Of a stretch of DNA of 64,000 nucleotides, positions 1,833 to 27,400 are shown piece after piece; position 1 is the stretch's first letter; each line of letters opens with the position of its first letter. The stretch is from contig NC_092345.1 of NCBI RefSeq assembly GCF_963676685.1, forward strand, positions 85,188,001 through 85,252,000, given 5' to 3'. This stretch comes from Mytilus edulis. Taxonomy: Eukaryota. The notes under the pieces are model-generated. The model did not search any database, was not told where the DNA came from, and saw nothing but the letters and a program-made list of their open reading frames with translations. Both the position numbers and the translations under genes were made by a program.

Positions 1833-4209
1833 TAGACACAACAGAAACTCTGACAATGATGTGATGTTTGATCATATGTATAAGTTCAGTGACCTTATCT
1901 TTCTAGTAAGTTATAAAATGAAAATAAATAAACAGTATTTGCACAACACTGGAATATCAAGTTTCACTTCCCAACTGTTATCTGAAATTCTTATCAATAA
2001 ATGTCAATCTTAATTACTCTAAGATTAACAGTTTGGTCAAGCCTCAGACAAACTTTACAAGTCCCTTCCTCCTGCAGATGTCAGTATAATTGTAATCTCC
2101 TAGTTATAGCAGTAAAATTATTAAAGGGGCAAAATTGAAAAAATAATAATAATTAGGAAGGGACATGTAGCAAGTCTAGGCAAGATACAAAAACATCAGA
2201 GACCTGATCATTGGTAACTTACTTATTGACCATATATCATCTTTTGGTGACCATAAACCACACAACCATACAACAAGGATTGTTAAAGTATTGTACTGTG
2301 GTTACTTATATTATCGAATTATATCTGGTAATTAAGATTGGCATCCACCATATTCTAGTATGACATGTAAACACGACCCGGAGATCCATCCATCAAATTT
2401 GACGTAATTGCGTTTACCAGTTCATCAATACACGTAATGTTTATCTTATTACTGTGTTCTCAGACTGAACTTTATTTAAAATTTCAACTTTTTCCAGGAA
2501 AAGATCTTAACTCATTTCAAATTACCTGCTTTCTGACGGTACAAGCCATGTGAAACATCTTTAATGCACTTGAGTGTTAAACCTTGTGTACTTTAAACAC
2601 GACATATATGTATATGAAAAAAATTGTCAGATCTTTTTTTGAAATAATGGTTCAAAGGATTTTTTTAGTTTCGTTCTGATGTTGACTTCATTTTAAATGT
2701 GGTAACCATGTGTAAGATTATGCGTAAATGTGTATCTGAAGCGATGTCAGAATGGAAGAAATTTTTAAAATATGATAATTTTAGTGCATGTTTATTCCCT
2801 AGGTGACTGTCAAATCCCCAAGATAACGCTTGGGCGTTTACTAATATAGTTCTGTTTCCGGACAAATTATCCCATGGAGGTCAAAATGTCCTGTCGAGCG
2901 CCTGCAGTCAACGTCGTCATAAATTAGTTTGGATTAGATAATAAATAATCATGGGAGGGATCACATAATCACTTAACTTCCTCGAGCCTGTCAAGTTCAT
3001 TTCACAAACGTGATCAACTTTACTTAATAGTTTTAAACAATTATAATGCAAAATCATAGCCACCACACTACCATGCAAAAAAAGAAAAAATACACTAATT
3101 TTTAACCTAAAAGTGTTCTTTTAAGAGAGTCATAAAATAACAACACTGACATTTATGCCTTATGGTCAACGATGGTAGTGTAGAACTCAACTGATCTTAT
3201 TTTTCAACTACATCACCGCAATAAAGAGTATTTTGGGGAATGCAAAAGCCTATGATCCATATTTTACATCATGTTGATGTATGTACAAAAAATGTATCCA
3301 GACGGTCATTCGGTTAAAAGTTTAGATTGAAGCATTACTTTAATTATTCATCCATCAATAACTGATAGGTTACAATCATTACTTATCTATGCATGGACAA
3401 TATCTGGAGGCTATCGTGTATCACGTCGTAGAAAAGAAACTGTTAAACATAACAAAATCAAAACAGACATATATCGACCTTTATAAAGAGTTTGATGTTT
3501 ATTTTGTTTAAATAAGCGTGGCTAAATTAATGTAAATATCTAGCTAACACGTTTTTGACGATTATTTTTCATTGATATAAAATCGTGTACATTTGTTTGT
3601 ATATGTAAGATTTATAAAACAAGATTAGACGATACATGACAACGAAGTGAATAGAGATGCTGTGTCATTTGAAGTTGAATTTTTCAATTAAGTAAATGGT
3701 TGAAAGAAATTGAAGAATGGGGTCCTAAGTACACCAAAAGCATGTAGATGTCATCCGTGAATATATATTATCCAGAGTCAATTAATGATCTATTAATCCG
3801 ATCACCTGCTGATCGCTTAGGGATTCACCATAGGATTTTTTAAGCCAAGTTTACATCACATAGATAACACATGTTTGATGAGATAAAAGATAATTGTAAA
3901 ATAATAAACACAAAACATGTGTAGCGTTTAACCTCGTCTTCCCGTCAGATTATAGTTATGTACTGATTGAACAAAAATGTTCATACTACATGTATAGTAC
4001 ATAAAACTAGATAAGAACATGATTGCAGCAACCTCTTACGATCCATATTAGTTTACCTTGCAAGTTTTATTTGTAATTACAATATTTTCAATGTATATTT
4101 CATTAGAAATACCATCTACAAATATCATCTCTTCAGTTAGTAATTGATTATTCTCGTAACTGTGGCAACACTTTTCTTTGTGAACTTTAAAGAATTTGTG
4201 AAAACTTAC

Positions 4210-6705: not shown

Positions 6706-9700
6706 TTAAATTGCATCGTATGTTCGTACTTTTCCTCTCCCAATAACAAAACGAGTACCATCCTACAAAAAAGTATAAATTCAGTAAATTCATGAACTAT
6801 AATTACAATAGGGTGTACATTTTTATATATATGAAATACTTATACTTTTGTATAAGGTCAATACTTTTGTATAAGGTCAAATATTCCCTATCATACCTTT
6901 TTAATTACTTACATGTTTGAAGCAATTAGCTACTACATTATGTCTGTCGTATGTAAGTGACAGGAGTAAAACGATTGTCTAAGCCTACGCAAGGTTTTCA
7001 ATCAATGAGTTATACAGGATATACAACTCAAAATGAAGAGTTATCAAGTGACCAGAACTCTTACTGGTATGAATTTCTTTATTGGTCAAAATGACCCTCT
7101 TACCAACATACAGTGAAAATATTTAAACTTTGCCCTGAGTGTGTCAAGTTTAAAAAAGCGAAACAGTTTGAATTGACTTTTTTTATATACAGAAGCTTTG
7201 TATATATTCAGCAAGTAAACCGTCTCGAAGCCTAATTTCCGTAAAACAATAACGGGCCCCAATGAGCCTGGAAATTTCACATAGAAGGGTACCTATATAA
7301 CATCAATTTTTATAGCAACAGTAGTATAGGGGCAATGGCGATGTCATATACCACATTGGATTGCAACCAGTTTGATCCAGATCAATAAGATTTTATTTTG
7401 TATGGTCAACTCTTTTTAGGACAGCACATCCAACGGAAAGTATATTGACTACTTTCATAACTTGTAGATACTCAAGTTATCTTTCAAATGAACTTTACTT
7501 TTCTCTTTCAAAATAATAGTTCCAAAGATAATTGCAAAACACAGTTAAATTGGTTAATAACCGTCATTTAGGCGTACATGAAATAATTCCCATACGTTAT
7601 TTTCACCAATATGGTATGGCATTAGTTTTCTGTTTTGCTTTTTTCAATCATATTGTCATAATATTGTTGTAAAATGATGCCCTTTATGGGTTCTTGATTA
7701 GATTAATAAAATTCTTATCTTATCTTATCTTATCTTATCTTATCTTATCTTATCTTATCTTATCTTATCTTATCTTATACTAGTAGCTTTAATTTGAAAA
7801 AAAACCCTCAAAAATGCTCTTTCGAATGATTAAAATATCCAATGTTGACAAAGTCACAAAAATATACACAACATATTATTTTTACCTTTATATATACTGG
7901 TACAGCAACCCAAAAGTCATGATTTGGTATAACTCGTTTACCAGATTCTTTACGTATAAATATTTGAACGAGTATTCCGATAAGTATGTACAGAAACAAT
8001 AAAGATACAAACCTACAAAAAAAAACCACATAAAAATAGGACAAAATAGATCAATCTAATTCAAATATAGATAGCTGCTCGCGTTATACTATATATTGGG
8101 AGATCTATATTTTAATTAGATTGAAAAATAGAGCACACGAGTTTTACAGCGTTAACGTTTTGAAAATTGCACATAAGCAGTACTGTATTTATGCAGCACT
8201 TAACAAATATAACTTTTTATGTTACTCAGTATAAATATACAGGTATGTCTTTTCTCGTGCTATTTATACTTTGGACATGCATGTCCGTAAAAGAGGGGCG
8301 AAAGATACCAGAGGGTAAAGTGACACGACATTTCAAAATCAGAATTTATATAATCGTGCCTTAACTTGATTTAACATCTCTCAACCATCAAAGTATCATA
8401 ATATAAGAACTAGACATTCGTTTTTTTCCTCCAATTATCCCAGTCATTGGGCCGAAGACGACTTTGATAAATTCACAATAAAAAGGTGCGTTTCAAAACA
8501 TTTATTAATACCCTCTGAACCTGACAATAATGTAGAAGTGTATACATATATATATTCTAAAACACATGTTATCTATCCGTACCCCGAAATGAAGAATTAT
8601 TAATAACTTACCCTATACATAGTATAGAGCCTACAGATAATCCAGATGAATCACAGACGTATTTGGACTTCAACTGGAACAACTGAAAAGGGAAAGTTTG
8701 CATTATTCTGCCAGAGACTCTATATCATGGTCCCGTAAGGGTTGTAGAATTACAGAGGTTGTCGAAAACATCTGAAAATACAATACTAAAGAAATATTAA
8801 GCCTCCACTGACAAACTTTATACTAACACTAACAGAAAATAAGTGTAAATATAATATATAGTGAAGCTTATAATGCTTTAAACCCATTGAACTTGAATTA
8901 AAGGGTACAAGATACAGTTTAGTATGCCTCATAACTTGACTTACATTTGGAAATTAACAACTAGGGTCGGTAGAGAACAAAACTGTACGACTAAATTGGG
9001 GATTTTATCTTTACAATTGTAAATTTTCCATTTATATGTAGCAACAATTAAGCAGCGCGTTCATATGGAGTATACTAGCATATTTTCCGAGTTGAAACGA
9101 ATTCCAGAGCGTTTCAAATCATGATTTCCATAACAGAGGGTTGTTGCTTACAATGAAACTATTAAACCAAGGGTTCTGAGAAGTAAAATTACCAGTTCGA
9201 AAGTGTTATGGACGCCATTACGAATTGTTAGACGTCACCGTTATGGAATATCTGTGTCTACAGATTACTACAGATATGTTCCAACTTCCAAATGTCAAAA
9301 CAACAATGCCGTTCGATTTACTAGTACTATCACCGAATGAGAATCTTCGGCGAATGTGTACTTACCATTTGTACTTACAACAAGTAACACAACGATTGCC
9401 ACTTAAAGATCAGGATCTGCTAACCCTTTCGGGGTACCTCAGATAACTCGGATGTAATTTTTAAGGGGTAAGTGGCATCAGTTTTTCATGCAGTGTTTTA
9501 TGAACTTGCTTATATTGCGTCGTCTTTCGTTTTTTTCGAAGGCGTTGTTAGTTTCTTATGACTTCTGAGTTTTTATTGACCCCATTGGTATCTTCCAGCA
9601 CACCAAAACCTCATAAACTGTAAGGCACACCAAGCATCAAAAATTGTATGGAACACCATCTAAAGCCTCATAACCTCATCGTAAGGCACTCCAAGCTACA

Positions 9701-12700
9701 TACTGTAAGGAACACCAGATTAAGCCTTCACAAAATGTAAGGCACACCCCCTTTAAGGACGCCAAGCTCATTAACTGTAAGGCATAACAAATCTGATAAA
9801 CTGTAAGGCACACCAAGCCTCACATACTGTAAGGAACACCAGATTAAGCACGCCTAGCTCATTAACTGTAAGGCATACCAAGCCTCATAAACTGTAAGGC
9901 ACACCAAGCCTCATTCACTGTAAGGTACACCACGCCTCATACACTGTGAGGCACACCAAGCCTCATACACTGTAAGGCACACCAAGCCTCATACACTAAA
10001 GCCACGGAGGCATCGTAAACTGAAAGGTACATAAGGGCTTAAACACTATAAGACAGGCGCACATCATAACTTAAAAGATATATTAACTGTTACACACACC
10101 AAGCCTCATAAACTGTAAATAGTTAGCAAAGGTACCAGAATTATAATTTGATACGCCAGACGCGCGTTTCGTCTACATAAGACTCACCAGTGACGCTCAG
10201 ATCAAAATAGTTATAAAGCCAAACAATTTTAAAAAAAGTTGAAGATCATTGAGGACCTAAAATTCCAAAAAGTTGTGCCAAATACGGCTAAGGTAATCTG
10301 TGAGACTTTAAGCATGTCACTTGCCTTACGAACTGTAAGGAATACCAGGCATTCTGAACTGTAAGGCACTCAAGGTCACGTTATTTGTAAAGCACATCAA
10401 TGCTCATCACCCGAAAGACACTAAAGGCTTCATAAACTGTAAGACACTTGAGGCCCCATAAACTATAAGACAATAGGGCTCCATAAACTGTAAGACACAA
10501 AATGCCTCACAAACTGTCAGACACTAAAGGTCTTATAAACTGCAAGGCACTCATAAATTGTAAGTCACCTAAGGTTTCGTAAACTTTTTTTATTTATAAG
10601 ACACTTAATACTTAGTAACCATTAACAGTACAGCAAATATATCTTCGAATTAAATTTGTCCCATAAACAGCAAAACAGTAAAACAGTAAAACCTGTTGAC
10701 CCACTATAGTATGTCAACGGAGTGCTGCAATGATCGAAACAACTAGACTTGACTGTATACAAGTAAGCCGCACGACCCCTTGTGTCAAGTTGCGACATAC
10801 AAGTCCATACAAGTGGTTACTATAAGAAGCCCTTTCACGTTGCGCAGTTAAATCTAACTAGTCGGTCGGTTGATAAATTAGAAAATGTAACCTCGGGTGG
10901 TTTACAACCGCAAATATGTTGTCGTGTGAAATTGAGGGCACCGTGATATACAAACAAAATTCTCTGGTTGGCATATCTTGTTTTAAATAAATCAATGTGG
11001 AAAGATAAATATACTTACAAAAGTTCCTGTTGGAGGAATGTCCTGTCCAAGGGAAGTCAAGTCTCCGTGTACTGATTTGTCACATACCAAATTGATTACA
11101 GCCTTTCTGAAATAAATAATACCCACAAATTGATACATGTGTAAAACTTCTCATTCTGTTATCTTTTGGTTAATTTCGTTGGGTTTCTCTCGCGATCACT
11201 GACGTATAATCCACACCTTCCTTTTATTCATATGTTCCGGGCATACTTTAAGATTGTTTCAAAGGCTGTATGAAAAAGGAACGAAAAGGAGTTGATTGTT
11301 TATCAAGAGTTTGTTAAAATCAGGTTAACGATCGTTTATTTGATTAAATGCACCGTTACATGAACACGCTTGATTCAACCAAAAATGTGCTGCACTAAAA
11401 TATCGTAGAAAAATAAAATGGACAGTGTTTCCACAACAGTGATCCATTGAATATTTTTAACTTTGGTCTATGATAAGAACTCTAATATGACTAAGCTTCT
11501 TAAGGGCACGATTCTTTTAATGGCATATCTTTTGGGGTGCTCTCTGGAACTCGGTCATCCGACCATCTCTATAGTACACGAAGGATTGCGTTGAATAAAA
11601 ACCGCAATATGTGAACTTCATTTATTTATTTAGGGAACTTACTGTTCGGCGTTTTGCGTATCACTGTAAGCTATTTGTAGTTGATCTCCGTCGTATGAGA
11701 ATTCTGCGCTGTCCTGTGTGCCTATAGGTACGTATTGGAATATTGGCCCAGATATTATTTCGTGACATACCTGAAAAGTACATATAATATACAGCATGTT
11801 AGGGGATAACCAGTGTACTGTAGGTCAAGGGGTTTAATTGACGACTGTTCATGCAAGCTTTAACATGTTCTGTTTTGTCAATTCTTTTTTTGAGATTCAC
11901 TTGTTGTCGAGTATCGAGTTGCGAGTTAAGAAAATCGAGTTGCAAGTTAAGAAAGTCGAGTTGCGAGTTACGAAAGTCGAGTTGCGAGTTACAAAAGTCG
12001 AGTTGCGAGTTACAAAAGTCGAGTTGCGAGTTACAAAAGTCGAGTTGCGAGTTACGAAAGTCGAGTTTCGAGTTACAAAAGTCGAGTTGCGAGTTACGAA
12101 AGTCGAGTTGCGAGTTACGAAAGTCGAGTTGCGAGTTACGAAAGTCGAGCTGCGAGTTACGAAAGTCGAGTTGCGAGTTACGAAAGTCGAGTTGCGAGTT
12201 ACGAAAGTCGAGTTGCGAGTTACAAAAGTTGAGTTGCGAGTTGAGAAAGTCGAGTTGCGAGTTACGAAAGTCGAGTTGCGAGTTACAAAATTCGAGTTGC
12301 GAGTTACAAAAGTCGAGTTGCGAGTTACAAAAGTCGAGTTGCGAGTTACGAACGTCGAGTTGCGAGTTACAAAAGTTGAGTTGCGAGTAAAGAAAATCGA
12401 GTTGCGAGTTAAGAAAGTCGAGTTGCGAGTTACAAAAGTCGAATTGCGTAAAAATGTGGAAACTAAAATATTTCAATTTTTTGGTGTAACTGATAACATT
12501 TCTGAATGATGATTTCTTATAGAATTGTATATAGTGTTGTTGATTATTTTTGTGGTTTGGACTCTATTTGAGTCTCTTGTAAAAATAAAATGGACTAGAT
12601 AATCACTACGTTTAGTATTTTCTGAAGAAGCAGATAGCCTTTTGAAATACAGCAGATGGCTTGCATTTTAATTATTTTAAAATTTCATACATAGCACCGT

Positions 12701-15700
12701 CGTATTAAACGTAAAGGGACATAGCAACTAAACTATATTTCATATATGTAAAACACCCCTTCTGCAGATTTCGTTTAAAGTGGGCTTTTTGGGGCAGCTG
12801 CGGAGCCGGGCAATATTCGTTAGTGACCGCAAAATTTATTGTTTGTCAGTGACACTAAAAATTGAGGATGTTAAAATTATATATGTCTTATGCATTGGCT
12901 AGAAATGAAGGGGATATGATGGGCGTGAATAAAACCAGTTTAAACACGCCGCTTTTTTGTGTCTGACCAATTTCAGGAACCTTTAGCCTTTGTTGCTCTT
13001 GTATACATTTTAATTTTGGTTCATCTTTATATTTAGCAGCATAGAATGGCGTCTACATTCTTTATCTATCTATATTGTGTTTCGGGCCTGCTCAGGGCTT
13101 CCTCTAGGTGTGTGATTTTTCGCTGTGTTAATTTGTAGACCTAATGACCTTTGGTTGAATTGTATATTTTGATTTGGTTGCTGTCTTTTTGACTCATTCC
13201 CCATTTTTATTCTTTATTTTATAAATGTAGCTGTCAAAGATACTATTGTAAAAACTATATTTGCGCCATTTACAGGTAAGATTTAATTGGAAAGTATAAA
13301 ATGATTATTGCTACATCGTGATTTCATACGTATTTTTTTAAAGTCAGTGGCAGATCCAGAAATTTTCATAAGTGGGGGCCCACTGACTGACCTAAGAGGG
13401 GGCCCGCTCCAGTCACGCTTCAGTGATTCCCTATATAAGCAAACACTTTTTTTTCCCAAAAAGGGGGCCCCTGGCCCCGCCCCCTCCTAAATCCGCCTCT
13501 GAAATTATTGGGTAACTTATTAAACTGAGTCACTTAGGTTTAAACTTGAGTTATATAGAAGTGTTCACATGTTTGATATTGTCAATTATAAGTTATTTTA
13601 AACTTAATTAAATTAAACATCAACCCAACAATGTTAGATCTGTAAATTTGCTTTCGCAAATTTTTGGTTCTTCCCTCGCCAGGATTCGAACCCATGCTAC
13701 TGTGATATCGTGACACCAAATCGCCTGCACTATATATATATATATATGTTATAGAGTAAAATTACTTGGATTGTAAGATGATGAAGTTCGCAATTTGAAT
13801 ATTGCTTATAGTGATTTTTTGTATAGCTCTCCCTTTCCATTCTTAAAAAGTCAATATACATTTTAAACCTAGATTCTTATAATTGTAAACTCATTCTATT
13901 ATATCTTTTTCGCAATACAAATATTCTTTTAAAATTTTTCCAGGTTTGTTAAACATATTAACTTTGGGTTTAGATAGTGTGACCTCTAAACACTCGTGTT
14001 TGAAAGACTTGCCTTGGAACTAGACAAAAAATAACAAGATCCTCTGCATACATGAGGCACTCAATTTTGCGGTCATTTATATCAACAGCATCTAGGGTTT
14101 CATTTAATGCATCCGGTTAAATTCTTTTATAAAAATCTTAAAAAGGTTGGGATTCAAAATATCCCCTTCGTTTACTTCAATTTGGGAATACAAATTAGAA
14201 GTAAGCACATTATCTATTTTCGCACATAATTCACTTTTATTATACATATCTGTCACGATTGCATGGAAATTACTACCTATGTTTGGCGGCAAAAACACAC
14301 GTTTTTCAAAACGATGGATGTAATAATGAAAACGGAAAATATCGATCTTCAATCGGATTTAAAAAGTCTATATATATATATCGATGTAGTTTTAAAAAGA
14401 TTAATCTTATTTGAATCGATCTTTTTTCAAGGTTTAAATGTTTAGATCGATCGCTTTTGTCAGGTGAATGTTAATATATATTCAGATATGAAAATAAATC
14501 TGCGCATGTTCGGCGTGTTTAAAAATGATGGATGGAATACGAAAAGTAAACATAGATTCGGCTATTTTTTTATTATCTTCTAAATCAATAAGTTCTATTT
14601 GTTTGCTGCAAATCCTCATCTTCAAACGCATTGGCCGTTCGTTATTTAGCGATAGATATATAGTTTACACACATATCTTTGTTTAATGACTTGTGATGTA
14701 CGATCCAAAATAATGATTAATAAGTCCATACGAAATTCCAATGAGCAAACTATTTTCTCAATGATTTTGCAATGTGTTATAGTTTGCGTGAGATGCAGAA
14801 TTTCCTTTACTATTCTATTTTTAGGATTATTTGTTTACGAAAGGTAATTTATGGTCAGATCGGTTCTTTTTTTGTTGTAGTGTAAACGCATTGAATTAAA
14901 TAAGATCGATCTCGTCCATTAAGGATACATTATTTTTTTTAAATGCTTCCAGAACTTAACTTATATTAGACTCTAATAAATAAGTATCACATAAACTGTT
15001 TCAAATCCCACAATAACGGGAATAACTAAGTTCAGGTGCATGCATGATTTGTTTATCAAATGTGAATCAAACCTGAAAATTCGGTGTAAACAATATTTTT
15101 TTAACTCGCAACTCGACTTTCTTAACTCGCAACTCGACTTTTGTAACTCGCATCTCGACTTTTGTAACTCGCAACTCGACTTTTGAAACTCGCAACTCGA
15201 CTTTTGTAACTCGCAACTCGACTTTCGTAACTCGCAACTCGACTTACTCGACTTTCCTAACTCGCAACTCGACTTTCGTAACTCGCAACTCGACTTACTC
15301 GACTTTCCTAACTCGCAACTCGACTTCGTAACTCGCAACTCGACTTCGTAACTCGCAACTCGACTTTCGTAACTCGCAACTCGACTTTTGTAACTCGCAA
15401 CTCGACTTTTGTAACTCGCAACTCGACTTTCGTAACTCGCAACTAGATTTCCGTAACTCGCAACTCGACTTTCGTAACTCGCAACTCGACTTTCGTAACT
15501 CGCAACTCGACTTCCGTAACTCGCAACTCGACTTTCGTAACTCGCAACTCGACTTTCGTAACTCGCAACTCGACTTTTGTAACTCGAAACTCGACTTGCT
15601 TAACTCGCAACTCGACTTTCTTAACTCGCAACTTGCAACTCGACGATAAGAAACCCTCTCTTTTTTTTTAGCATATTCGTTTCTTTCTGTGAATGATATG

Positions 15701-18700
15701 ACACTATTTTTTCATTCATTATTTGTCACTGGAAGTTATGCAGCCATGCGTAAACCAGTACACATGACATATGTTTTTGCGCTAGCTAAACAATAAAGAA
15801 ATATTTTTAAATATATTTGATATGAATATTAAATATAAGGTCATCTATATATCTGTTACCTATCAAAATAGCAAAATACCAAGATATATTGATGTATAAC
15901 ATATACAAAAATTCGTCTAAAGTTTTGAACCGACTAGTAGAGGGGAATAACATACTTAACCCTCGCCAACACGGCTTCACGAGTAAAAGATCATGAGAAA
16001 AACAGCTCTTTGAATGCGATATAACAAAAAATTATGAAAACTGAACTAAAGATATCTACTAGACTATATATTCAAATGTTTGACAAAATATACCACGGTC
16101 TTCCCTAAACTGGAATCCGCTTGTATTATCGCCACACTCAAATACTTAAACCTCCAAATCATCTACAAATTCATCCAAGAGCATGCTTATATTTGTAATC
16201 AGCTGACATAAAAAATAAATCCAGTGTCTGCAACATGAAATATGAACTAGCACTGAAAAGCCTAAAAACGAGGCTCAAAGAATCAAGACTCGCCTATCAA
16301 AATTGCAAGTGACCGTGTAGCCATAGGAAGAGACATATATTACAATTGTATTATATGTCTCTGCCATAGGCAAACAAAAAATACTTACAAAAAAACAGCG
16401 AAAAACTGTAGTCGTACAACCAATCTTTCAAACCTATTACAACCAGCAGGCGCGGATCCAGGGGGGGGGGGGGGGGGGGGGTCCGGGTTTTTTTTTGGAC
16501 GATCAATGCATTTGAATGGGGACATGTAGTTGGAACCCCCCTTTTTGTCCTGGGTTAGGACCCCCCCCCCCCCCTTTTAAAATGGCTGGATCCGCCCCTG
16601 ACCAGCTACAAACAACTGTAGGACATGGTCGAGAACTGAAACAAATTGCCTCTGGTAATCGCCACAGCCATGTCACTTGAAATATTCAACACCATTCAAT
16701 AACCATGTATATGAAAGAAAAAAACAATGTGTATTGATTTTTGTTCTTTTAAAGAAATATGATGTAGGATACTCACTGCCACATTATTACAGTCGTTGAG
16801 AGTAAAAGCATTACATGGATTCCAAGCATAAGCATCTGCTTGTCCATTAGGGTCAATTATATCTGCATATCTGTAAAAGAATGCGCAAAAATTCTGTTTA
16901 ATTCTGTGTTATAAGACATGAGGCTCTAAAGAGCATGTGTAACTCATCTATAGGTGCATGTGCAACTTCAACAATGAATACTCTTCAACTGTGTGGACTA
17001 GGATGGAATTCATGAATTCGTGACAAAAATATGTTTTAGTGATCTTGTATTGCTGATTTTTTTTTCTGATCATAATTTCTGTTCATCTTTAGTTTTCGTC
17101 ACAATTACGCAGAAAAAAAGAAAAGTTGTCTTTTTAGGGCAGTCACTCCTATCAAGAGTCTAATAAAGATTTCAGCAAAATTTGACTCATTTGTCGATCT
17201 GATCTTGTTGATCATTTTTGCTATTAAAAGTATCTATCTATCTTTCATAGTTTGAAAGATAAACATCAAAAACACAAAAAGTCGGTAAATATAGTCATTA
17301 ATGAACAAGACCTCTTTCAGCAAGGAGTCAAAGAAAATTTCATCCAGATCAATTTGGTATTTGAAATGGCTATCTATCTGTAATAGTTTTCAAGATAAGG
17401 GGCAAAACACTAGAAATGGGTAATAAATTGTCACTAAAAGGCAGTAAATGAAATCAGGAGTCTACTAAAGAATTCGGCCATTAGACTTTTTTGTAGATCT
17501 TATCTGACTGATCATTTTTGCTATTTCAAGCTTCTATCTATCTATTGTAACTTATAAGATATATGACGAAAATGGGGGAAAAAGTGGTAACAATTGCCAC
17601 TAAAGGTCAGTAACTCTAATAAGGTATCTTAACAAGAAATCTTACAAAATTAAGAATTAGTTCCCACCCTTTTTTGATTGAAAAGGGCAGATATTTCAGA
17701 CCAAAATTTAAGAGAGAAAACAGAATATGCTTGAACTGTAATCAAATAGAGGATGAAAAACATAACCTTATTTATTGCAAAAAAATTTAAAATTATAGAA
17801 AACAACTATTTAATCAAGATCTGCGCCCTGAAAAAGTTATGAAAACCATTATTAGTTTAATTAACCCACAAAATATTGATGATACAAAAAATATATGCCA
17901 TTACATAAAATTAATTATGCTTTGAATCTTTGTAATTTTATTCATTTAACCTTGATTTGATATTTTGTCAAACATGATATATATGTATTTATGTGATGTA
18001 ATATCATGTTAATGTGGGGGAAGACATCATTAAGTCTTTCCACTTTTCTGTGGAAAGACTTATTGTTTTTCTTCTGATTATTATTTTTTTTTTCCGCCAA
18101 ATTTTGTTCTTGCGATAAATGTTTGTTTCGCAATATGTCGCTTAGATATTTCTCATATGGTATCGTATAGTTTACGCGCTTTTAAATTTTACCCTGCTAA
18201 GCCGAACCATTTTCTTTGTAAGAGTTATCTCCCTATTCACTGTTTATCATCTGTGTGCATCTCCTTCGTAACAAAAAAAGATAGCGACAAAATTCTTTTT
18301 ACAAATTGTTCGTTACATCCTCAGTAATTTTTGGCGCATTTGGAGCGAAGCGATTCGATGAAATTTTATAGGAGTTATCTACCTTTACAAAATAAATTTG
18401 TCGGTATGTTTATTTAACTCATAAACCGTTAACTGTATAACCCTGGAATGTTTTTATTTGAGTCCAATGGGTCCCAACTTAGAAAATGAGGTCAAGGTCA
18501 AAGGTCAAGGTCAAGTTCTAAATTGTGACTTTTGCTTGTTTTTGCATTTTCTCCGACACTTTGAGAGATACACATAAAAGAACAAGTGCAAATGTCAGCT
18601 TTATTGTAATGAAGATATGTTACATTTAGTCTTATACAATTAAATGGCATCTTATAGGAGTTGGTGCCCCTGAAATGTCTTGATATGAAGTTATTTGATT

Positions 18701-21179
18701 ATAACTTCAATTAAGTTCATTATAAAGACATTTGACCTCATACAAAAGGTTAAGTGACTAATGACCTTGAAAAATGGCTACCGGAAGTGACCTTTAGAAA
18801 ACCGGAAGTAGCTATTTTTGCAATTTCTTTCACCTAAAAGTACCCAGAATCCATATATTTTGTCATATAGATACATGAACAGATTACTGAAGACTAAAAA
18901 TGACTTCCAACAAACCGGAAGTGGCCAATTATCTCCCATTCTACATACAAAAGTATATAGAAACTATATATTTTTGGAATCAGTGTGAAAGAAGCTATCA
19001 TATGAGACCGGATGTGACATTAATTTCACCGGTAGTAGCATATTATCTCCCTTATATCACTCAAAAAGATAATTAAACCATCATTTATCGCATCAGTATA
19101 AAGAAACTACCTTCTTATCCAAATTACTTTAGTTTGGAAAGACTTTCAATTGTTCTCTGAACAATTGGTTTTTAATTATACTTGTATTGATTTTCCTGAT
19201 TTAATAAAAACTTGTATCATCGGACGATTTCAACTACTAAACTTATGGATCTTGTGTTGCTGATAGTTTTCAGTTTTCTGATTTATGTTTCAATCTACCT
19301 ATTTTAATTTTTCTGACATTAGACAATTTTTTTTTAAATCGTCATTAAAGGGCTATTACTCCAATCAGGAGTCGTCTGACGATTTTGACATTTTTTGTAG
19401 ATCTTATCTTGCTGATCATTTGTGCTTCTTACCGTTTCTCTATATCTATTATAATTTCAAGATAAAAGATCATAATAGGCAAAAATGGAGAAAATAAATG
19501 ATAAAATTCTTCGCTTTTAAAAGGGCAAAATCTATAGACATTAGGTAGATCAGCATTGTAAACTCGCACCTGCAAAGTGGAAAGGGATTAACATAAGTTG
19601 CAAAACTTATTTCACAATCCACTATAAATAAATATGTTTAAACTAACCATGTTCAAGAATATTGGACATTTCCAAGCGAGATAACCCTACATTTTTTTTT
19701 AATAAAAACTCTGATAGTTTTAAATTGCTCACCGAGATATATAATTTATTATGACAAATGATATCTCGTATGTGTATTAAAATTAAGTCTTTATAATTTT
19801 GGTAAATTGACATAACCTCGGTTTTGAATGTATCTGTGTTATTCAATTGTTCATTTTCCCCCCGAAATATATCATGGTCACAGTATATCAAATTCATAAA
19901 CTGTCATTTTGATTGCATTTCAAAATGCAGTTGACAACAGAAAACATTGAGTTAAAAAAAAATCTTGATAATTAGATTGTTTCATCATTTTTCAATCTTA
20001 TCTGCTATGGAAAAATTAACTGCGACGAATATCGGAATTTTTAAGAATTTTTTTAAGTCAAAGGTACAATAACCACAATAGTAACATAGGGAAAAAAGAA
20101 AAAAAGTATGAAGGCTATTTTCAAATGTCCATTGACAACAGTAAACGCTGACTTTATTTTTTTTTTTTTTTTTTTAAGTATCATATTTGGAAATCCTTCT
20201 TAAAGTTCACTTGCTATGGACATTTTTTATCACGTTTTTTGTAAAAAAAAGATATTTTAAAAATCATAACAGGGTATAAGTGTTTTCCGTTTACATCAAT
20301 GATAACTATAAAATTTATAAGATTTATCTAAGACATAGCACGTGTACTGATTAATTTAAAAATTTAAATGTCCTTCATTCTTGTGTATGGGATGACGGAC
20401 ACCAAATGTGTGAGAAGTGAACTTCGTTTGCTATTTTCTATAAAGTTTGTCATGGTTTAAATCAATCACTAAATTCCAGAATCTATAAGAATAAAACACA
20501 GTGCATTTTTGAACAGATAACTAAAAATTCATTACACAAAAGTTTAACAAAAAAAAAACCCCGAACTTGCAAAACATTTCGGGCTTTTCTCGTGTTAATT
20601 GTCGAAAAAAATAATAGAACCCTACCTTACATTCAGGAGAAGAGGGTAGTTAAAAGTAAGATATGAGAAAATCGGAAGCTAACTGATAAAAGTGAAAAGT
20701 CAACAGAATTAAACTGTGACTTGATTGATGAAGATAACCTGAGTCGTGTGTGTAAGAATGCAGTCACGGATTGATTGGAGAAAAAGAAGACATGACTGAA
20801 TGAGCCATGTAGATGAAAGGATTTGTGTCTTTTGATTTGATTAGGGACTTTCCGTTTAGAATTTTCCTCAGAGTTCAGTATTTATGTGATTTCACTTTTT
20901 TTTCGCAAACAGTGACGGTTCCTTTCCTGACATGAAATCAAATCTTATTGAGTCAGCAAAATAATTGTTAGACTCTGAACCATGTTGCTATAAATAAAAA
21001 GAACAAACTTACGCAGGGGTTCCATCCTTTTTCGCCAATGGAGTTAAATCAATTAAATGTCCAGAATCTGTTAGACAAGAACATGCTGATTTTTTAGTGC
21101 AACTCTTTGCTAGAACGTTCGAACTACATAGAATCAAAATGATACAAACACATGAACATCCAAAGGTAAATTGTAACAT
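6706..21179 (-). CDS. Cation-dependent mannose-6-phosphate receptor / ATG27-like type I membrane protein (single MRH domain), 7 exons, 243 aa
   Basis: Exons 21179-21013, 16870-16777, 11770-11643, 11106-11019, 8682-8612, 8012-7886 and 6762-6706. All introns are GT-AG with matching phases; total 732 nt. Signal peptide MLQFTFGCSCVCIILILCSSNVLA, MRH motifs IDLTPL, WNPC, VINLVCD and LKSKYVC, TM segment GLSVGSILCIGFVSLLFLYILIGILV, family tail IPNHDFWVAVPVYIKDG, C-terminal YDAI-stop. Confidence 0.88.
7712..7778 (+). repeat. (TCTTA)n microsatellite, preceded by AATAAA
   Basis: About 13 perfect pentamer units directly after aataaa; resembles a retroposon 3-prime tail. Confidence 0.9.
8900..9600 (+). 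mobile_element. Degenerate Penelope-like retroelement RT (C-terminal part) remnant
   Basis: Broken frames read HLEINN*GR*RTKLYD...DFIFTIVNFPFICSN...SYGVY...RGLLLTMKLLNQGF...RKCYGRHYELL, matching the KLYDKRDDFNFPIVNFPF / LLTRKLLNQG / RKFYGRHH motifs of mollusc Penelope-like RTs. Confidence 0.75.
9600..10585. repeat. Degenerate ~30-bp tandem array (cctcataaactgtaaggcacaccaag core), interrupted by a dispersed repeat at about 10118-10300
   Basis: The core actgtaaggcacaccaagcctcat recurs more than 20 times with decay. Confidence 0.85.
10153..10198 (-). ncRNA. Type I hammerhead ribozyme motif (A6G core variant) within a dispersed repeat
   Basis: Minus strand reads GAGCGUCA-CUGGUGA-GUC(UUAUGUA)GAC-GAAA-CGCGCG-UC-UGGCGU: stem I (GCGUCA/UGGCGU), catalytic box, stem II, GAAA, palindromic minimal stem III and a GUC cleavage triplet. 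The core has G where CUGAUGA has A. Confidence 0.75.
11906..12449 (+). repeat. 21-bp tandem array (aaagtcgagttgcgagttacg), about 26 copies
   Basis: Directly visible. Explains ORFs 11799-12476, 11838-12509 and 11851-12390. Confidence 0.97.
13345..13501. mobile_element. GC-rich MITE, CAGTGGC(A/G)GATCC-type termini
   Basis: cagtggcagatcc...atccgcctctg with flanks aaagt/aaatt; internal sequence is similar to the copy at 62495-62674. Confidence 0.8.
13610..13730 (-). mobile_element. tRNA-derived SINE fragment (5-prime truncated)
   Basis: Minus-strand Pol III B box GGTTCGAATCC at 13682-13692, with no complete cloverleaf. Confidence 0.65.
13780..14300 (-). mobile_element. Degenerate non-LTR retrotransposon (LINE) reverse transcriptase fragment
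   Basis: NIGSNFHAIVTDMYNKSELCAKID...IEVNEGDILNPNLFKIFIKEF corresponds to GVRQGDxLSPxLFxIFI. After a stop, CLMYAEDLVIF corresponds to YADD, and YKNLG further on to YKYLG. Confidence 0.8.
15101..15645 (-). repeat. Second array of the same 21-bp unit, in inverted orientation
   Basis: (taactcgcaactcgactttcg)n is the reverse complement of the 11906-12449 unit. Confidence 0.97.
16328..16363. mobile_element. 36-bp hairpin mini-element with 7-bp TSD
   Basis: ccatagg|aagagacatatattacaattgtattatatgtctctg|ccatagg. Related copies at 57341-57375 and 56387-56431. Confidence 0.7.
16447..16600. mobile_element. GC-rich MITE with 5-bp TSD (ACCAG)
   Basis: accag|caggcgcggatccag...ctggatccgcccctg|accag, with internal poly-G and poly-C runs. 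Confidence 0.88.
18029..19172 (+). mobile_element. Non-autonomous Helentron-like (HINE) element
   Basis: 5-prime hairpin aagtctttccac...gtggaaagactt, 3-prime subterminal inverted copy tggaaagactt, then hairpin caattgttc-tct-gaacaattg and a T-rich end. Confidence 0.65.
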
Positions 21180-21498: not shown

Positions 21499-24400
21499 AT
21501 GGAAGACTTGAGCACTTTGAAGGTTTTTAAAATAAGTTTCTCCACAATCATAAACATAATGCGTTAAAAAAAATAATGTCAAAAGTAATCATGATAAAAA
21601 CTATTCTCATATGGCGAGAATCGGGGGTCAATTTGTCATTTTGGGAGCATGGTTGAATGTTCATGGAATGGCAAAAATGAATTTGTATGACAATACACCT
21701 TATCGCTAATCCCGGCTGACCCGGCCGCTTGAACTTTTGACGTCAACAACAATCACTTTTCCATTGTGGCGTCAGATATTTTGTTTTATGACGTCAAAAT
21801 TTTAGGGGAACCTGTGTGATTTCCAGCAATGGCGGACAAATAGCGATAAGGTGTATGAGAGTAGGTGCCCTGTACTGCCAGGTGTCAAACGGCCATTTTC
21901 GGTTATCGTTTACGTTAGCGTCAAATTGGTTGACATTTTATCGTGATTCATCAAAATAACCTTATTGTGATTCGTCAAATAACCTTATTGTGATTCGTCA
22001 GAGGTCTCATATTTTTTTATCGAGGGTGAAGCCCTGTGGAGGGTCCAGGGGGGGCTTTGCCCCCTGTAAGCTCCTGGGTTTAAGGAAAAGGAGATACTAT
22101 GGTCAAATTAATAAAAAATAACTTGTAATTTTGGCATTTTTTTTTCAATGGTGTAGCTTTGATGTGTTACCAGAAAGCCTAAAAAAAATAGTTTTGAAAA
22201 TGTGATGTACAAGCATAAATTTCAATCCTCTTGGTTCAGTGTCTTTTCCTGCAAGACACCGACTGTGACTGTCACATGTACAAGAAACATATTATTATAT
22301 TTCATGAATAAATATTATAATTTATCATAGGCTGCACCCATACATCATACCATATTTGCATTTTGACTAAGATGTTTTTATGTGTAACAGTATAAATATT
22401 TACATTCTAATTATATTTTTTATGACAATCAATGAAAAACATTCATGGCTTATCTCCACTGACAATAAAACATTTACCCTTGTATTTTGAGGGACGAAAG
22501 TTATCATGCTTAACAGTAACACTTTGGTATTTTTGATAAGTAAAGTTCTATGTACCGTAGTTTAAGTTACTTGGTAAGAGAAATAAGCCACTAATTTTTC
22601 TCATTGGACCCTGTAATTGAGTACTTAAATACAAATATTATTATATCAATCTGATTTATTTGATTCTATTAAAACATGTTGTTATTTTCATTTTGTTCAT
22701 CATCATCATCCTCATTATCATCATCATCTATATACATTTTTTTGATTGCAGCCTGCACTTCAAGCCTTACCTCCTCTCTGTCACTTAAACTTGTAAGAGA
22801 AACAGGCTCTGTCTGTACTGACATGTCTTGTACTTCAGTAATATTTGGAATAGGATTTTGTTCGTTTTTCATTCTACAATTTTGTTTTACTGCAAGTTTC
22901 CTCCTGTTTTAAGTTCCTATCCATGTTTCCACTGCTTTTGGTACAGTGAAACCTGTCCAAACCGAACACCCATGGGACTTTGTGTTTTGTTCGGTTTTCA
23001 CAGGTGTTCGGATTGTGGAGGTAAACGGAAGTGGACAGCAAAATGATTTAGACACTGACGACGGACACCAAATAATACACCAGACGACGGACACCAAGTA
23101 ATACAACAGATGACAAGTATTGTCGTGTTGGTTTCAATATAAAATAAAATAAAATATATCAAAAAGTTATTTTATAGATGCAGAAAAAACAATTACAATT
23201 TTTAATGAACAATAAAGTGCAAGTTCAAACTGTTAATCGATCTCATTGTACAGAGAAATAATTATCCAATGTTGTCTGACGTGTAGCTAGTTTGCTTTTT
23301 ACAATCAAGTCCTCGGTCATTGAAATCATTTGTTCCGTTTGATCTAGGTAACGGCTATCCTTAGAAATAGAAAAATTGCGCAACTTTGTCAATAAATCCA
23401 AAATGTCAGTATGGTTCATATCGGAACCGGGTTGAACCTCTGTTGGAATGTCTGTGTCAATATCTTCGTCGGATTCGATTAAAGTATCTCCAGTAAATTC
23501 CCTGATTAAGTCCGTTTCCCACTCACTATCAAATGCTGATTCGGTGGCCAAATTGTCATCAACATCGTCAGCTTCTGTAATTTGTACACTCGGATCCCTT
23601 GACCTTAATTGTTCCACTAAATCGGCTAACGGTATGTCGTCATCCGGGTCTTCAGGCTCATCTACAATTGTTGGGGCCTCTAAGGGGAATCCCGCATCAC
23701 GAAAACATGATTCAATTGTTGTGGATTTAGTTTCGTTCCACGACTTCTTAATCCAGTGAATGGCTTTTAAAACGTTTATTTCTTTGCAAAGTTCAGTAAC
23801 TGTATTGCAGTTGTCAATTTGTGGCAGTAAATGTTTGATCATGTGCTTTCTATATCTCGCTTTAAAGGCACGAATAATACCCAAATCAAGTGGCTGTAGT
23901 TTAGAAGTCGTATTTGCTGGGAAAAACTTCAATTCAACATTACTAAGCTTTAGATTGTGCGAGTGAGAAGTTGCATTGTCAAGGAAAATTACGATTTTCC
24001 TAGATTTTTTCCGCATGTCCCGATTAATGTCCTTTACCCATTCAGTGAAAAATGTGCTATTCATCCAGGACTTTTTGTTAGCCTTCCAAGTCACAGGAAG
24101 CGATTTAACATCCAAATTGCGAAAACATCTAGGTTTATTAGCGTTACCAATGACTAAAGGTTTTAGTTTCTCGCCTCTGACACTACAACACAGCATAACA
24201 GTAAGCCTTTGTTTTGACATTTTACCCCCTTTACATTCTTTCCCACGCTCCGCTAATGTCTTGTCAGGAAGGGCACGAAAGAAAAGGCCTGTTTCATCAG
24301 CATTGAACGTATCCCTTGGGTCATAATCTTTAACAATTTCGGGTAATTTACTTTTAAATTCTGCAACAACGTTTAGATTCACATCAGCACTTTCCCCGCA

Positions 24401-27400
24401 AACTTTGAAAAATCCAATACCGTATCTTAAACGCCAGCTTTCTAGCCATCCATTTGAGGCTTTAAACTCAGGCAAATTTAGCTCCTTTGCGAACTCCAAA
24501 GCTTTTTCCTGTAAGATAGGTCCACTCAAAGGAATGTTCTTTTCACGAGCACCTTTAAACCAACGAAATAGAAGTTCATTCAAATCGAAAAATTTACTTG
24601 AACTGGCATGACGTTTCCTCTTACTTCCTATGTTTTCTTCGTATTGAGTACGATATGTATCTTTACGTTTAAGAATGTCACAAACAGTAGCTTTCCCGAT
24701 CCCATACTTTAAACTTAGATCCTTTTGTGAAATTTTTGGAACTGCCTCCGAATCTTTAATTAAATCCATTTTGTTTTCAATAGAAAGTTCCTTTCTTGCC
24801 CTTTTAGGCGATGGAGAAGGTTTATCATTTTGGTCGAATTTACGTTTCTTCTTAGGAGTTTCCATTTTAACACTGCATTCGTGAACATGTACAAGCTAAT
24901 TAGTTTATAAAAACAACTCACCATTAAATTAAAATTTAAATACCCTCAAGGGATCCTCTGCTAGCCTATGATTGTTAAATCACGCATGCATATTGTTGTA
25001 AATACTTACATTGTTTTGATTGCTATCGATCGATTTTGACAGGTAAATTTTTTATACACATTGACTAACGGGGCTTTAAATGTCGTTCGGAATTCGGTGT
25101 TAGCAGGATTCGGTTTTATCAGGTTAAATTAACGGTAATTAATAGAGAAATGTTACGGGACTTTAGAAATTGTTCGGTTTGATATGAAATTCGGTTTTAT
25201 CAGGGTTCGGTTTTACCAGGTTTCACTGTATAACATTGGATTTTTTGAGACTGTCCATATCAGGACCATTTATACAAACATGCATATAGGCTACAATTTT
25301 TTCTTTTATTTCAAAAGAAGGGCCATGGGACAGGTATACATATGATTTATGGTAAAAATGAAGAGTCTGCTTTTAATTAGTTGCTCTATCACTTGAAAAC
25401 AAGAAAATGAAAATCACTTAATGAAAATAATGTGTTGTCTGCTTGTACTAGACAAGACATTGCTCTCATTTTTTCATTTCATTGTAGGACGACGATCATG
25501 CACTTTATGAACATTACCAAGGCGGGTGTCTCAATTATTTGAATGCAAATGTCATAGAACAAATTTTTTTTCTCGCTTTGTTGTTGATTGAAAAAAATCT
25601 GAAATTCTTTTCATTTCTCTGACTCTGCTTCACTTTTTCTTTATTGACTGGTTACAAAATCTCGTTATTACTATAAATGCATACTTATCCTGGTTTCAGT
25701 ACAAAATCTTATAGTACTTTGCAGCGAACTCAACAACCAGCATCTATTTTGACGGAAATTCAATTTTATTAACCAATCAGAAATGCCGTAATATATATCT
25801 CTAGATTGTCTAGATAGTGATTGACGATCTAAAACTAAAAGTTCCATTTATATTTTTTTGACATCAGAAAAACAACGGATGGGGATTTGGTTACAAACGA
25901 CCATTTCAATCGACAATCGGTTCTTAATGAAAAGCTGTATCATAAAATAAGTCACAGGTCTTAAAGAAAGTACATGTATACATTTCATCATCATCATGCA
26001 CGGAAAATTACCTTTAACATCATTTGGCAAGAATTTTTACCTTTATTTGTCATGAAAGTACCCTCATTAAGACCATAGGCAGAGTCTATGACTGAAAAAA
26101 ATATGCAGGTAACAATTGTTGAAAATGTAAATGTTTTTACTAGGCCAGTCCACCTAATTTAAAGCAGCACCTGTGAAAGATGGTGAATTCTGTAAAAAGC
26201 TATTAATTAAAGCATTATTTTTTTGCAAGACTTAAAATTCACTTAAATGAGTTTTATTAGTTAGATGTAAGGGATTATGTCTCTCTTTGAGACTGATTGG
26301 TAAAAAATTATTGCTTACTTGACCCAACCTTTTTAATTTGTACATTGCATTAAAATAGGATGCATTTCTCTTATACATTAGTGTGTCTTTATAGTTATTT
26401 GATAACTATTTTTCTGTTACAGGTAGCTGATTTGAAAGAAAAATTAAAGGAGAAAGGTTTGACTGTATCTGGGACTAAACCAGAGTTATTGAAGAGATTA
26501 AAAGATGCCATGGAATTAGAAGGTATGTGTATGAGAGATGAAGAACATTGAACATTTTCAGGTAAAATGATAAAAACTGCATTTTGACACACAGTTTTTT
26601 GGTATATCTCAATATAAGTAAAGCAACTCTTACCAAACAACTTACATTAAAAAAAAAAAAGAATATCAAGCATGTTATCTTCCTGTTCAAGGGCACTACC
26701 TTATTTTGACAATTTTTTCCATACTGGCTGCTAAAAATTGTCATTTGACATTTCAATTTTATTGCCGTTTTAGCAAGAAAAAACATATTTTAATTTGTTT
26801 ATAGTTCTTGTAGCTAGTCTCCCTTTAAACAATGAGTTTGTGAATTTTATACAATAACTTAAACAGTTGTTTTACTAGCTAGTATATAGATATTATATGA
26901 ATTGAGCTGTTTAATTTTCAGTTCTTTAATAATTTAATTAGAAATTGTTTTGATATGTTTTACAGAAACAGAAGAGCTAGAAGAAACTGAAGAAGTGGTA
27001 AGAATTAAGACTACATAATACATGTATAGGATAGAATTAAGGCTGCAACATAATACATGTATAGGATAGAATTAAGGCTGCAACATAATACATGTATAGG
27101 ATAGAATTAAGGCTGCAACATAATACATGTATAGGATAGAATTAAGGCTGCAATATAATACATGTATAGGATAAAATTAAGGCTGCAACATAATACATGT
27201 ATAGGATAGAATTAAGGCTGCAACATTATACATTTTGTACATGTATAGGATAGAATTAAGGCTTACAATATGCAGTGGTCTCGCTTGCCCAAAATAGAAG
27301 GGCGCCACGCCCTGGGTGCCCTCAGCCGCGCCCTGGGTGCCTTCATCCGCGCCCTTCTGCCCTGACGTCTTTTTCCCAAATTATCTTGTGCCGTTTTGGT

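What the first reader, a model, noticed from the sequence alone, without database searches (positions are those of the whole stretch)
6706..21179. Intact M6PR-like receptor with all four mannose-binding signature residues replaced (Q-R-E-Y to H-Q-Q-F)
Established: MRH domains bind mannose through a Gln-Arg-Glu-Tyr signature (CD-MPR Q66, R111, E133, Y143). Seen, aligning by eye on cysteines: VAVCH where VCQ is usual. AEQKAVINLVC versus EQRRAVVMISC puts Gln at R111. LGQD replaces GE. FLFQLKSKYVC versus YLFEMDSSLAC puts Phe at Y143. The signal peptide, cysteines, TM segment, IPNxxFW tail and C-terminal YDAI sorting signal are intact. Inference: a trafficking receptor that has lost mannose/M6P binding or switched to a different ligand; near-conservative changes at all four sites suggest repurposing rather than decay.
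Basis: partly seen in the sequence, partly recalled or inferred. Interest (0 to 1): 0.7.

Follow-up and report, generated by a model that had tools for sequence, protein, structure and literature searches.

The report
Mussel sorting receptor missing mannose-binding residues
This intact, spliced mussel gene encodes a mannose-6-phosphate-receptor-like membrane protein in which all four standard sugar-binding residues are replaced, so it likely no longer binds mannose and likely carries some other cargo; it is one of several sibling genes, and similar losses recur in other invertebrates, so it is a real but fairly ordinary case of divergence after gene duplication.

Summary
Observation confirmed. 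The minus-strand gene (21179-6706) has 7 exons and 243 codons, is identical to a named Mytilus edulis protein, and all six introns are spliced in RNA contigs. It folds as one MRH domain (pLDDT 89; Z 12-16 to CI-/CD-MPR). The Q-R-E-Y sites read H90-Q130-Q151-F159. Intron positions fix three of the sites without alignment: six of six sibling genes have Arg across intron 3 and Tyr ending exon 4; this gene has Gln and Phe. The ectodomain has no arginine at all. The gene is not decaying: HQQF is kept in five Mytilus species and a 69%-identical relative, at the same rate of change as its siblings. But it is not the CD-MPR orthologue: the genome holds a separate QREY CD-MPR, a CI-MPR-like gene and QREY siblings. 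Total loss occurs in 13 of 131 homologues (at least 7 changes on the tree), its nearest relatives read LDKY and KVLY, and the pocket segments are no more conserved than the rest. Best reading: a cycling receptor that works without mannose, like Drosophila LERP. A new ligand in the old pocket is possible but not shown. No earlier scan finding matched.

The parts
21013..21179 (-). Exon 1: start codon, hydrophobic signal peptide (about residues 1-24), start of MRH domain
   Evidence: joint 16870/21013 in RNA contigs of X9 and X13
16777..16870 (-). Exon 2: residues 56-87, Cys75 and Cys83
11643..11770 (-). Exon 3: residues 88-130
11762..11764 (-). His90 (CAC) at the Gln site; third codon of exon 3, Gln in 4 of 6 siblings, Asn and Glu in the others
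11106..11644 (-). Gln130 at the Arg site: codon CA|A split by intron 3; AG|A or AG|G (Arg) in 6 of 6 siblings
11019..11106 (-). Exon 4: residues 130-159, Cys138
11043..11045 (-). Gln151 (CAG) at the Glu site
11019..11021 (-). Phe159 (TTT) at the Tyr site; last codon of exon 4, TAT in 6 of 6 siblings
8612..8682 (-). Exon 5: last MRH strand, Cys169, start of transmembrane helix
7886..8012 (-). Exon 6: rest of transmembrane helix (residues about 176-202) and the IPNxxFW tail motif (7930-7910)
6706..6762 (-). Exon 7: tail ending in YDAI (6720-6709, YxxPhi pattern) and stop codon
   Evidence: 106 of 137 homologues end in YxxPhi

Best explanation
This is an intact, spliced gene for a single-MRH type I membrane protein whose four canonical mannose-binding residues are replaced, and it likely works as a mannose-independent cargo receptor that would cycle between Golgi, endosome and cell surface by its tyrosine tail signal. 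Shown: gene structure, splicing, the four replacements and their register, no arginine in the ectodomain, conservation across mussels, QREY siblings and a separate CD-MPR orthologue in the same genome. Predicted: the MRH fold. Inferred: loss of Man/M6P binding (about 0.9, from CD-MPR mutagenesis); cycling through AP-adaptor binding to YDAI (no acidic dileucine signal); cargo capture by protein contact on the MRH surface, as proposed for Drosophila LERP and seen for IGF2 on CI-MPR domain 11. After duplication the siblings kept the lectin job, which freed this copy's pocket.
For: Open 243-aa frame and six GT-AG introns, all six joints in contigs of X9 and X13, five in X6, two in X1. MRH fold: pLDDT 89.3, Z 16.4 to CI-MPR (rmsd 2.1, 130 aligned) and 12.0-12.5 to CD-MPR chains. 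Register by alignment and by intron position. Zero Arg in residues 25-170. Identity of M. edulis to M. californianus orthologues 91.2% versus 88.5-93.4% for three siblings. Genome holds a QREY CD-MPR with loop-C His-Cys and a DDHLLPM tail, a multi-repeat CI-MPR-like gene, Stealth_CR2 and NAGPA matches. Q66, R111, E133, Y143 are reported as crucial by mutagenesis (PMC11422237, one passage). LERP lacks these residues, fails to bind phosphomannan and partly rescues hydrolase sorting (PMC4610224, abstract and passages).
Against: No binding, localisation or cargo data. No conserved alternative surface was identified; I could not inspect model coordinates. The replacements are unusually conservative, which fits a retuned pocket better than an abandoned one. 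Yeast Atg27's MRH domain is dispensable for autophagy (10.1101/2025.11.06.685569, passages), so the lumenal domain might carry no cargo. RNA evidence is from contigs only and gives no level or strand; three of the four runs are RNA by guess.
Confidence: 0.55

Rival explanations
1. The pocket is retuned: H-Q-Q-F, polar and uncharged, binds a different neutral sugar or small ligand, and the protein is an endocytic lectin of new specificity.
For: HQQF ties for the top BLOSUM62 score (6) among 12 zero-of-four tetrads; P(sum>=6) 0.019 under a single-step codon model and 0.054 under an empirical column model, both post hoc. All four residues are kept in five Mytilus species and P0003. Siblings show fixed partial changes (NREY in 5 of 5, EREY in 5 of 5 orthologues).
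Against: Pocket segments 24 of 36 identical to P0003 versus 78 of 111 elsewhere; four matches at 69% background are expected about one time in four (0.69^4). P0162 has Arg for His. Nearest relatives read LDKY (97/82 support) and KVLY (94/44, weak). Three of four changes are one base from the canonical codon.
Confidence: 0.25
2. The MRH domain is only a folded lumenal spacer or oligomer surface; function lies in the transmembrane segment and tail, as for yeast Atg27.
For: Pfam ATG27 scores as well as Man-6-P_recep (55 and 58 bits). Atg27 lacking its MRH domain supports autophagy (10.1101/2025.11.06.685569, passages). Tail motifs are kept in 19 of 25 degenerate homologues.
Against: The ectodomain is as conserved as the membrane part against P0003 (102 of 147, 22 of 32, tail 27 of 41). 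At least eight sibling genes with different ectodomains are hard to explain by tail function alone.
Confidence: 0.13
3. It still binds mannose or M6P through other residues or weaker contacts.
For: Fold and the rest of the family consensus are intact; Lys131, Glu91 and Asp152 lie next to the signature sites.
Against: No Arg in the ectodomain. Register fixed by introns. Residues adjacent in a beta strand face the other way (general knowledge). That single E-to-Q or Y-to-F changes abolish CD-MPR binding is recalled; my search for the primary data found none.
Confidence: 0.05
4. A decaying duplicate on its way to a pseudogene.
For: Redundant with QREY siblings.
Against: Open frame in named proteins of four Mytilus species plus a partial fifth, spliced RNA, rate equal to siblings, a 267-aa intact relative at 69%.
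Confidence: 0.02

Closest known systems
Drosophila LERP (PMC4610224; seen: abstract and passages)
   Same: MRH-type sorting receptor without the M6P-binding residues, with trafficking role retained.
   Different: LERP has five MRH repeats and is the CI-MPR orthologue in an animal lacking parts of the M6P pathway; this protein has one MRH domain and coexists with CD-MPR, a CI-MPR-like gene, Stealth_CR2 and NAGPA matches.
Vertebrate CD-MPR (M6PR)
   Same: Signal peptide, one MRH domain, one TM helix, PNxxFW-like tail motif; Pfam PF02157 above cut-off; Z 12.
   Different: Lacks Q/R/E/Y, the loop-C His-Cys and its disulfide partner, and the acidic dileucine signal; the true orthologue is another gene (G000:C13:71.34 Mb).
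CI-MPR non-lectin domains (e.g. domain 11, IGF2-binding)
   Same: Same fold (Z 13-16) with the tetrad replaced (domain 11 in the alignment).
   Different: Those are repeats in one long chain; IGF2 binding is vertebrate-specific (recalled); no ligand is known here.
Yeast Atg27 (10.1101/2025.11.06.685569; seen: passages)
   Same: Single MRH, TM, short tail; Pfam PF09451 above cut-off.
   Different: No test of orthology or of Atg9 binding here.
Invertebrate single-MRH 'M6PR-like/ATG27-like' paralogue family (database-annotated)
   Same: Same seven-exon layout, cysteine pattern and tail as six siblings on the same contig; 1108 representatives at E<=0.001.
   Different: Half of the 137 nearest members keep QREY; this clade is the only one of 137 with neither the tetrad nor any ectodomain Arg, though 12 of 132 others have no Arg outside the pocket.

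Membership tests
MRH domain superfamily | Nine-strand flattened beta-barrel MRH fold | tested here: met
   Predicted model pLDDT 89.3; Foldseek E 4e-7 and VIA Z 16.4 to CI-MPR domains; unrelated rows start at Z 3.1
MRH domain superfamily | Profile match and conserved cysteines | tested here: met
   PF02157 58 bits, PF09451 55 bits, both over cut-off; C75, C138, C169 invariant in 136 rows
Mannose-binding MRH lectins (P-type lectins) | Gln-Arg-Glu-Tyr tetrad | tested here: not met
   H90, Q130, Q151, F159
Mannose-binding MRH lectins (P-type lectins) | Measured binding to mannose or M6P glycans | not testable with these tools
   needs glycan array or SPR
CD-MPR orthologues | Loop-C His-Cys and partner Cys before the Tyr site | tested here: not met
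   0 of 137 family members have either Cys; present in the C13 gene
CD-MPR orthologues | C-terminal acidic dileucine signal | tested here: not met
   Tail ends in YDAI; the C13 gene ends in DDHLLPM
MPR-type receptor by the criteria of 10.64898/2026.10.22.760878 | At least one MRH domain plus a cytosolic tyrosine or dileucine motif | tested here: met
   criteria read in section 5; MRH, TM and YDAI
Invertebrate single-MRH paralogue family | Shared intron positions and phases | tested here: met
   Exon 3 and 4 boundaries match in 6 of 6 siblings on C2; other exons match by profile
Atg27 orthologues | Orthology and Atg9 binding by the tail | not tested
   only a Pfam match
M6P-independent sorting receptors (LERP-like function) | Cargo binding and cycling without M6P | not testable with these tools
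   inferred from anatomy only

The most novel reading that the evidence does not exclude
The expanded invertebrate single-MRH genes are an unrecognised repertoire of endocytic receptors whose pockets have been retuned many times (QREY, NREY, EREY, HQQF, LDKY, KVLY, MASY) to bind different food, microbial or self ligands; the mussel HQQF protein is an MRH lectin with a non-mannose sugar specificity, which no paper found in my searches describes.
Probability: 0.18. Interest if true: 0.62.

Novelty: new member of a known kind. Interest (0 to 1): 0.3.

Why it matters
MRH domains without the tetrad are known (LERP, several CI-MPR repeats), so the loss alone would not surprise a specialist. What is useful is the natural series in one genome: QREY, one-site and four-site variants on the same scaffold and exon plan, next to a true CD-MPR. 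It allows a cheap side-by-side glycan-array test of whether MRH pockets can change sugar specificity, and it warns that database labels such as 'M6PR' or 'ATG27' on these genes do not imply M6P binding.

Tried and rejected
Single exons gave no Pfam match over cut-off and P0007 alone found no solved structure by sequence; the alignment profile did, for CI-MPR and glucosidase II beta but not CD-MPR chains. Word-indexed homologue searches returned few hits (5 and 8). A metagenome scan for DNA of P0003 found 70 pattern matches and no relative, so no cross-species dN/dS could be computed. Four further runs laid on exons 3-4 showed 3 exonic differences (two synonymous, one Val-to-Ile, my reading) and none at the four codons; one run did not cover the exons; too few for a test. 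The Atlas search only returned MRH-type clusters. Lack of Arg as a special trait: 12 of 132 other homologues also have no Arg outside the pocket, so it only serves to exclude another register. Excess conservation of the pocket: not found. My automatic donor choice was wrong for two siblings and was corrected by reading the DNA. Rows dropped before the count of 131: three extra Mytilus orthologues of the query, one duplicate sibling, two gapped rows; proteins under 200 or over 310 aa were never aligned. Deep branches of both trees are mostly unresolved; the quick tree warned of long-branch joins. Literature: ten searches found no paper on this gene or on tetrad loss in bivalve paralogues; the library lacks most subscription journals, three wanted papers were not held, and no supplements were read (Table S11 of the 2026 preprint scores QREY and could bear on how common loss is). 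Earlier scan notes: none relevant. No complex was predicted.

Full report
Gene. The finding is a seven-exon gene on the minus strand, 21179 to 6706, with six GT-AG introns and one open frame of 243 codons. The product is identical to P0007, which its source names as an uncharacterised Mytilus edulis protein. Orthologues are on record for M. galloprovincialis, M. trossulus, M. californianus and, partially, M. coruscus. Contigs of four public runs from four studies were laid on the gene: X9 and X13 join all six introns at the predicted places, X6 five, X1 two. These are contigs, so they show splicing but not level or tissue; X13 is recorded as an invertebrate gut RNA library.

Anatomy. Hydrophobic signal peptide, one MRH domain, one transmembrane helix at about 176-202, and a 41-residue tail with IPNxxFW and terminal YDAI. 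Pfam Man-6-P_recep and ATG27 both pass cut-off. The AlphaFold2 model from a 136-row alignment has pLDDT 89.3 and matches CI-MPR and CD-MPR structures (Foldseek E 4e-7 to 1e-5; VIA Z 16.4 and about 12). There is no N-glycosylation sequon.

The four sites. In 137 aligned homologues of 200-310 aa, the columns of residues 90, 130, 151 and 159 hold Q, R, E, Y in 94, 98, 92 and 105 rows; the query has H, Q, Q, F. A second alignment agrees in 132 of 136 rows. The family profile places these columns on the Q, R, E and Y of human CI-MPR domain 9. Intron positions give a check that needs no alignment: in six of six sibling genes on the same contig the codon split by intron 3 is Arg and the last codon of exon 4 is Tyr; here they are Gln and Phe; the third codon of exon 3 is Gln in four siblings, Asn and Glu in two, His here. 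Residues 25-170 contain no Arg, so no shift of register can restore it. A review passage lists Q66, R111, E133 and Y143 as crucial by mutagenesis (PMC11422237); that single E-to-Q or Y-to-F changes abolish binding is recalled and was not found in the library. Loss of Man/M6P binding is therefore likely, not shown.

Context in the genome. This is not the CD-MPR orthologue. A gene at G000:C13:71.34 Mb has Q, R, E, Y, the loop-C His-Cys with its partner Cys, and a DDHLLPM tail; a second partial copy lies just upstream. A multi-repeat CI-MPR-like gene lies on C10, and Stealth_CR2 and NAGPA families match over cut-off. The query belongs to a separate single-MRH family that lacks the loop-C cysteine pair (0 of 137). 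Siblings found: C2 88.8 Mb QREY, 90.27 NREY, 90.9 QREY (with a frameshift in the TM exon), 97.88 EREY, 97.90 QREY, 104.6 Q-R-?-Y without a clear Glu, an intron-poor degenerate copy on C10 and a partly resolved one on C4. The count is a lower bound. An Aplysia survey lists 13 P-type lectin genes (PMC9334734, passages), so expansion in molluscs is on record as a count.

How common is the loss. Among 131 rows (after dropping six, see Tried and rejected), 68 keep all four residues, 25 three, 11 two, 14 one and 13 none (same counts in the second alignment). Named zero-of-four proteins come from Nematostella, Porites, Actinia, Lineus and Sinanodonta. With the four columns left out of the tree, the zero-of-four state needs at least 7 changes and the at-most-one state 16 (quick tree, weak deep branches; the set is the top of a search with this query, not a random sample). 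In a careful 43-row tree the HQQF clade is sister to P0011 (LDKY, 97/82) and then, weakly, to scallop P0012 (KVLY, 94/44). Q, R and E may thus have been lost before the mussel lineage, with different residues settling in each line.

Decay or function. M. edulis versus M. californianus identity is 91.2% for this gene and 88.5, 89.7 and 93.4% for three siblings. HQQF is kept in five Mytilus species and in unnamed P0003, 69% identical in the ectodomain. The gene is under constraint. Against: pocket segments are 24 of 36 identical to P0003 versus 78 of 111 elsewhere, one of four full-length members of the P0003 cluster has Arg for His, and three of four changes are one base from the canonical codon. 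Codon-level dN/dS could not be computed.

Mechanism. Most likely (0.55) a cycling receptor that binds cargo without mannose, as reported for Drosophila LERP, which lacks the residues, fails to bind phosphomannan and partly rescues hydrolase sorting (PMC4610224, abstract and passages). Rivals: a pocket retuned to another glycan (0.25); a lumenal spacer with function in the tail, as for Atg27 whose MRH domain is dispensable for autophagy (10.1101/2025.11.06.685569, passages) (0.13); retained mannose binding (0.05); decay (0.02). A 2026 preprint calls single MRH, TM and tyrosine motif the ancestral MPR layout and reports partial tetrad loss in Trichomonas paralogues (10.64898/2026.10.22.760878; abstract, first part of section 5, passages). 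Other papers seen only as passages and not decisive: PMC7481795, PMC6272264, PMC3103398, PMC12654237, PMC7148315, PMC3039611.

Verdict. Real and accurately observed; a new member of a known kind (MRH receptor without the lectin tetrad) inside an expanded invertebrate family where such loss recurs. No paper on this gene was found in ten searches. Interest 0.3; 0.62 if a non-mannose sugar specificity were shown (probability about 0.18).

Noticed in passing
window 8771-8683 (minus), intron 4: A second acceptor 89 bases upstream of exon 5 opens a short frame with a stop; M. californianus isoform X2 (P0009) ends with a similar-looking tail, and one X1 contig reaches 8724. It would give a truncated form without the last strand and TM helix.
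   Followed up: partly
window 11643-11647: Contigs of X9 and X13 show a second form of the exon 3 end that changes Glu129 to Asn by my reading but keeps Gln130.
   Followed up: partly
window 4295-4209 (minus): An exon matching the integrin-alpha part of P0001 lies downstream; P0001 ('ITGA8') looks like a gene-model fusion of this gene with its neighbour.
   Followed up: partly
window 23243-24895 (minus): 550-aa open frame with CENP-B_N, HTH_Tnp_Tc5 and DDE_1 domains, a pogo/Tigger-like transposase, upstream of exon 1.
   Followed up: partly
window 11911-12450 and 15100-15645: Two arrays of the same short (about 21-base) unit in opposite orientation inside intron 2, about 2.6 kb apart.
   Followed up: no
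window 1365-1871 (minus): 169-aa open frame with a zf-AD match below cut-off.
   Followed up: no
L009, G000:C2:90902859-90902932: The QREY sibling at 90.9 Mb has a frameshift in an A-run in its TM exon: broken allele or assembly error.
   Followed up: no
L013-L014, G000:C10:34095000-34102300: An intron-poor family member with a degenerate tetrad and a tail ending in a tyrosine motif, possibly retroposed in part.
   Followed up: no
L021-L022, G000:C4:35580700-35582200: The exon end before the TM exon of a family member is repeated about ten times in tandem.
   Followed up: no
L016, G000:C13:71330596-71331836: A second, partial CD-MPR copy upstream of the full gene, diverging after the Tyr site.
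   Followed up: no
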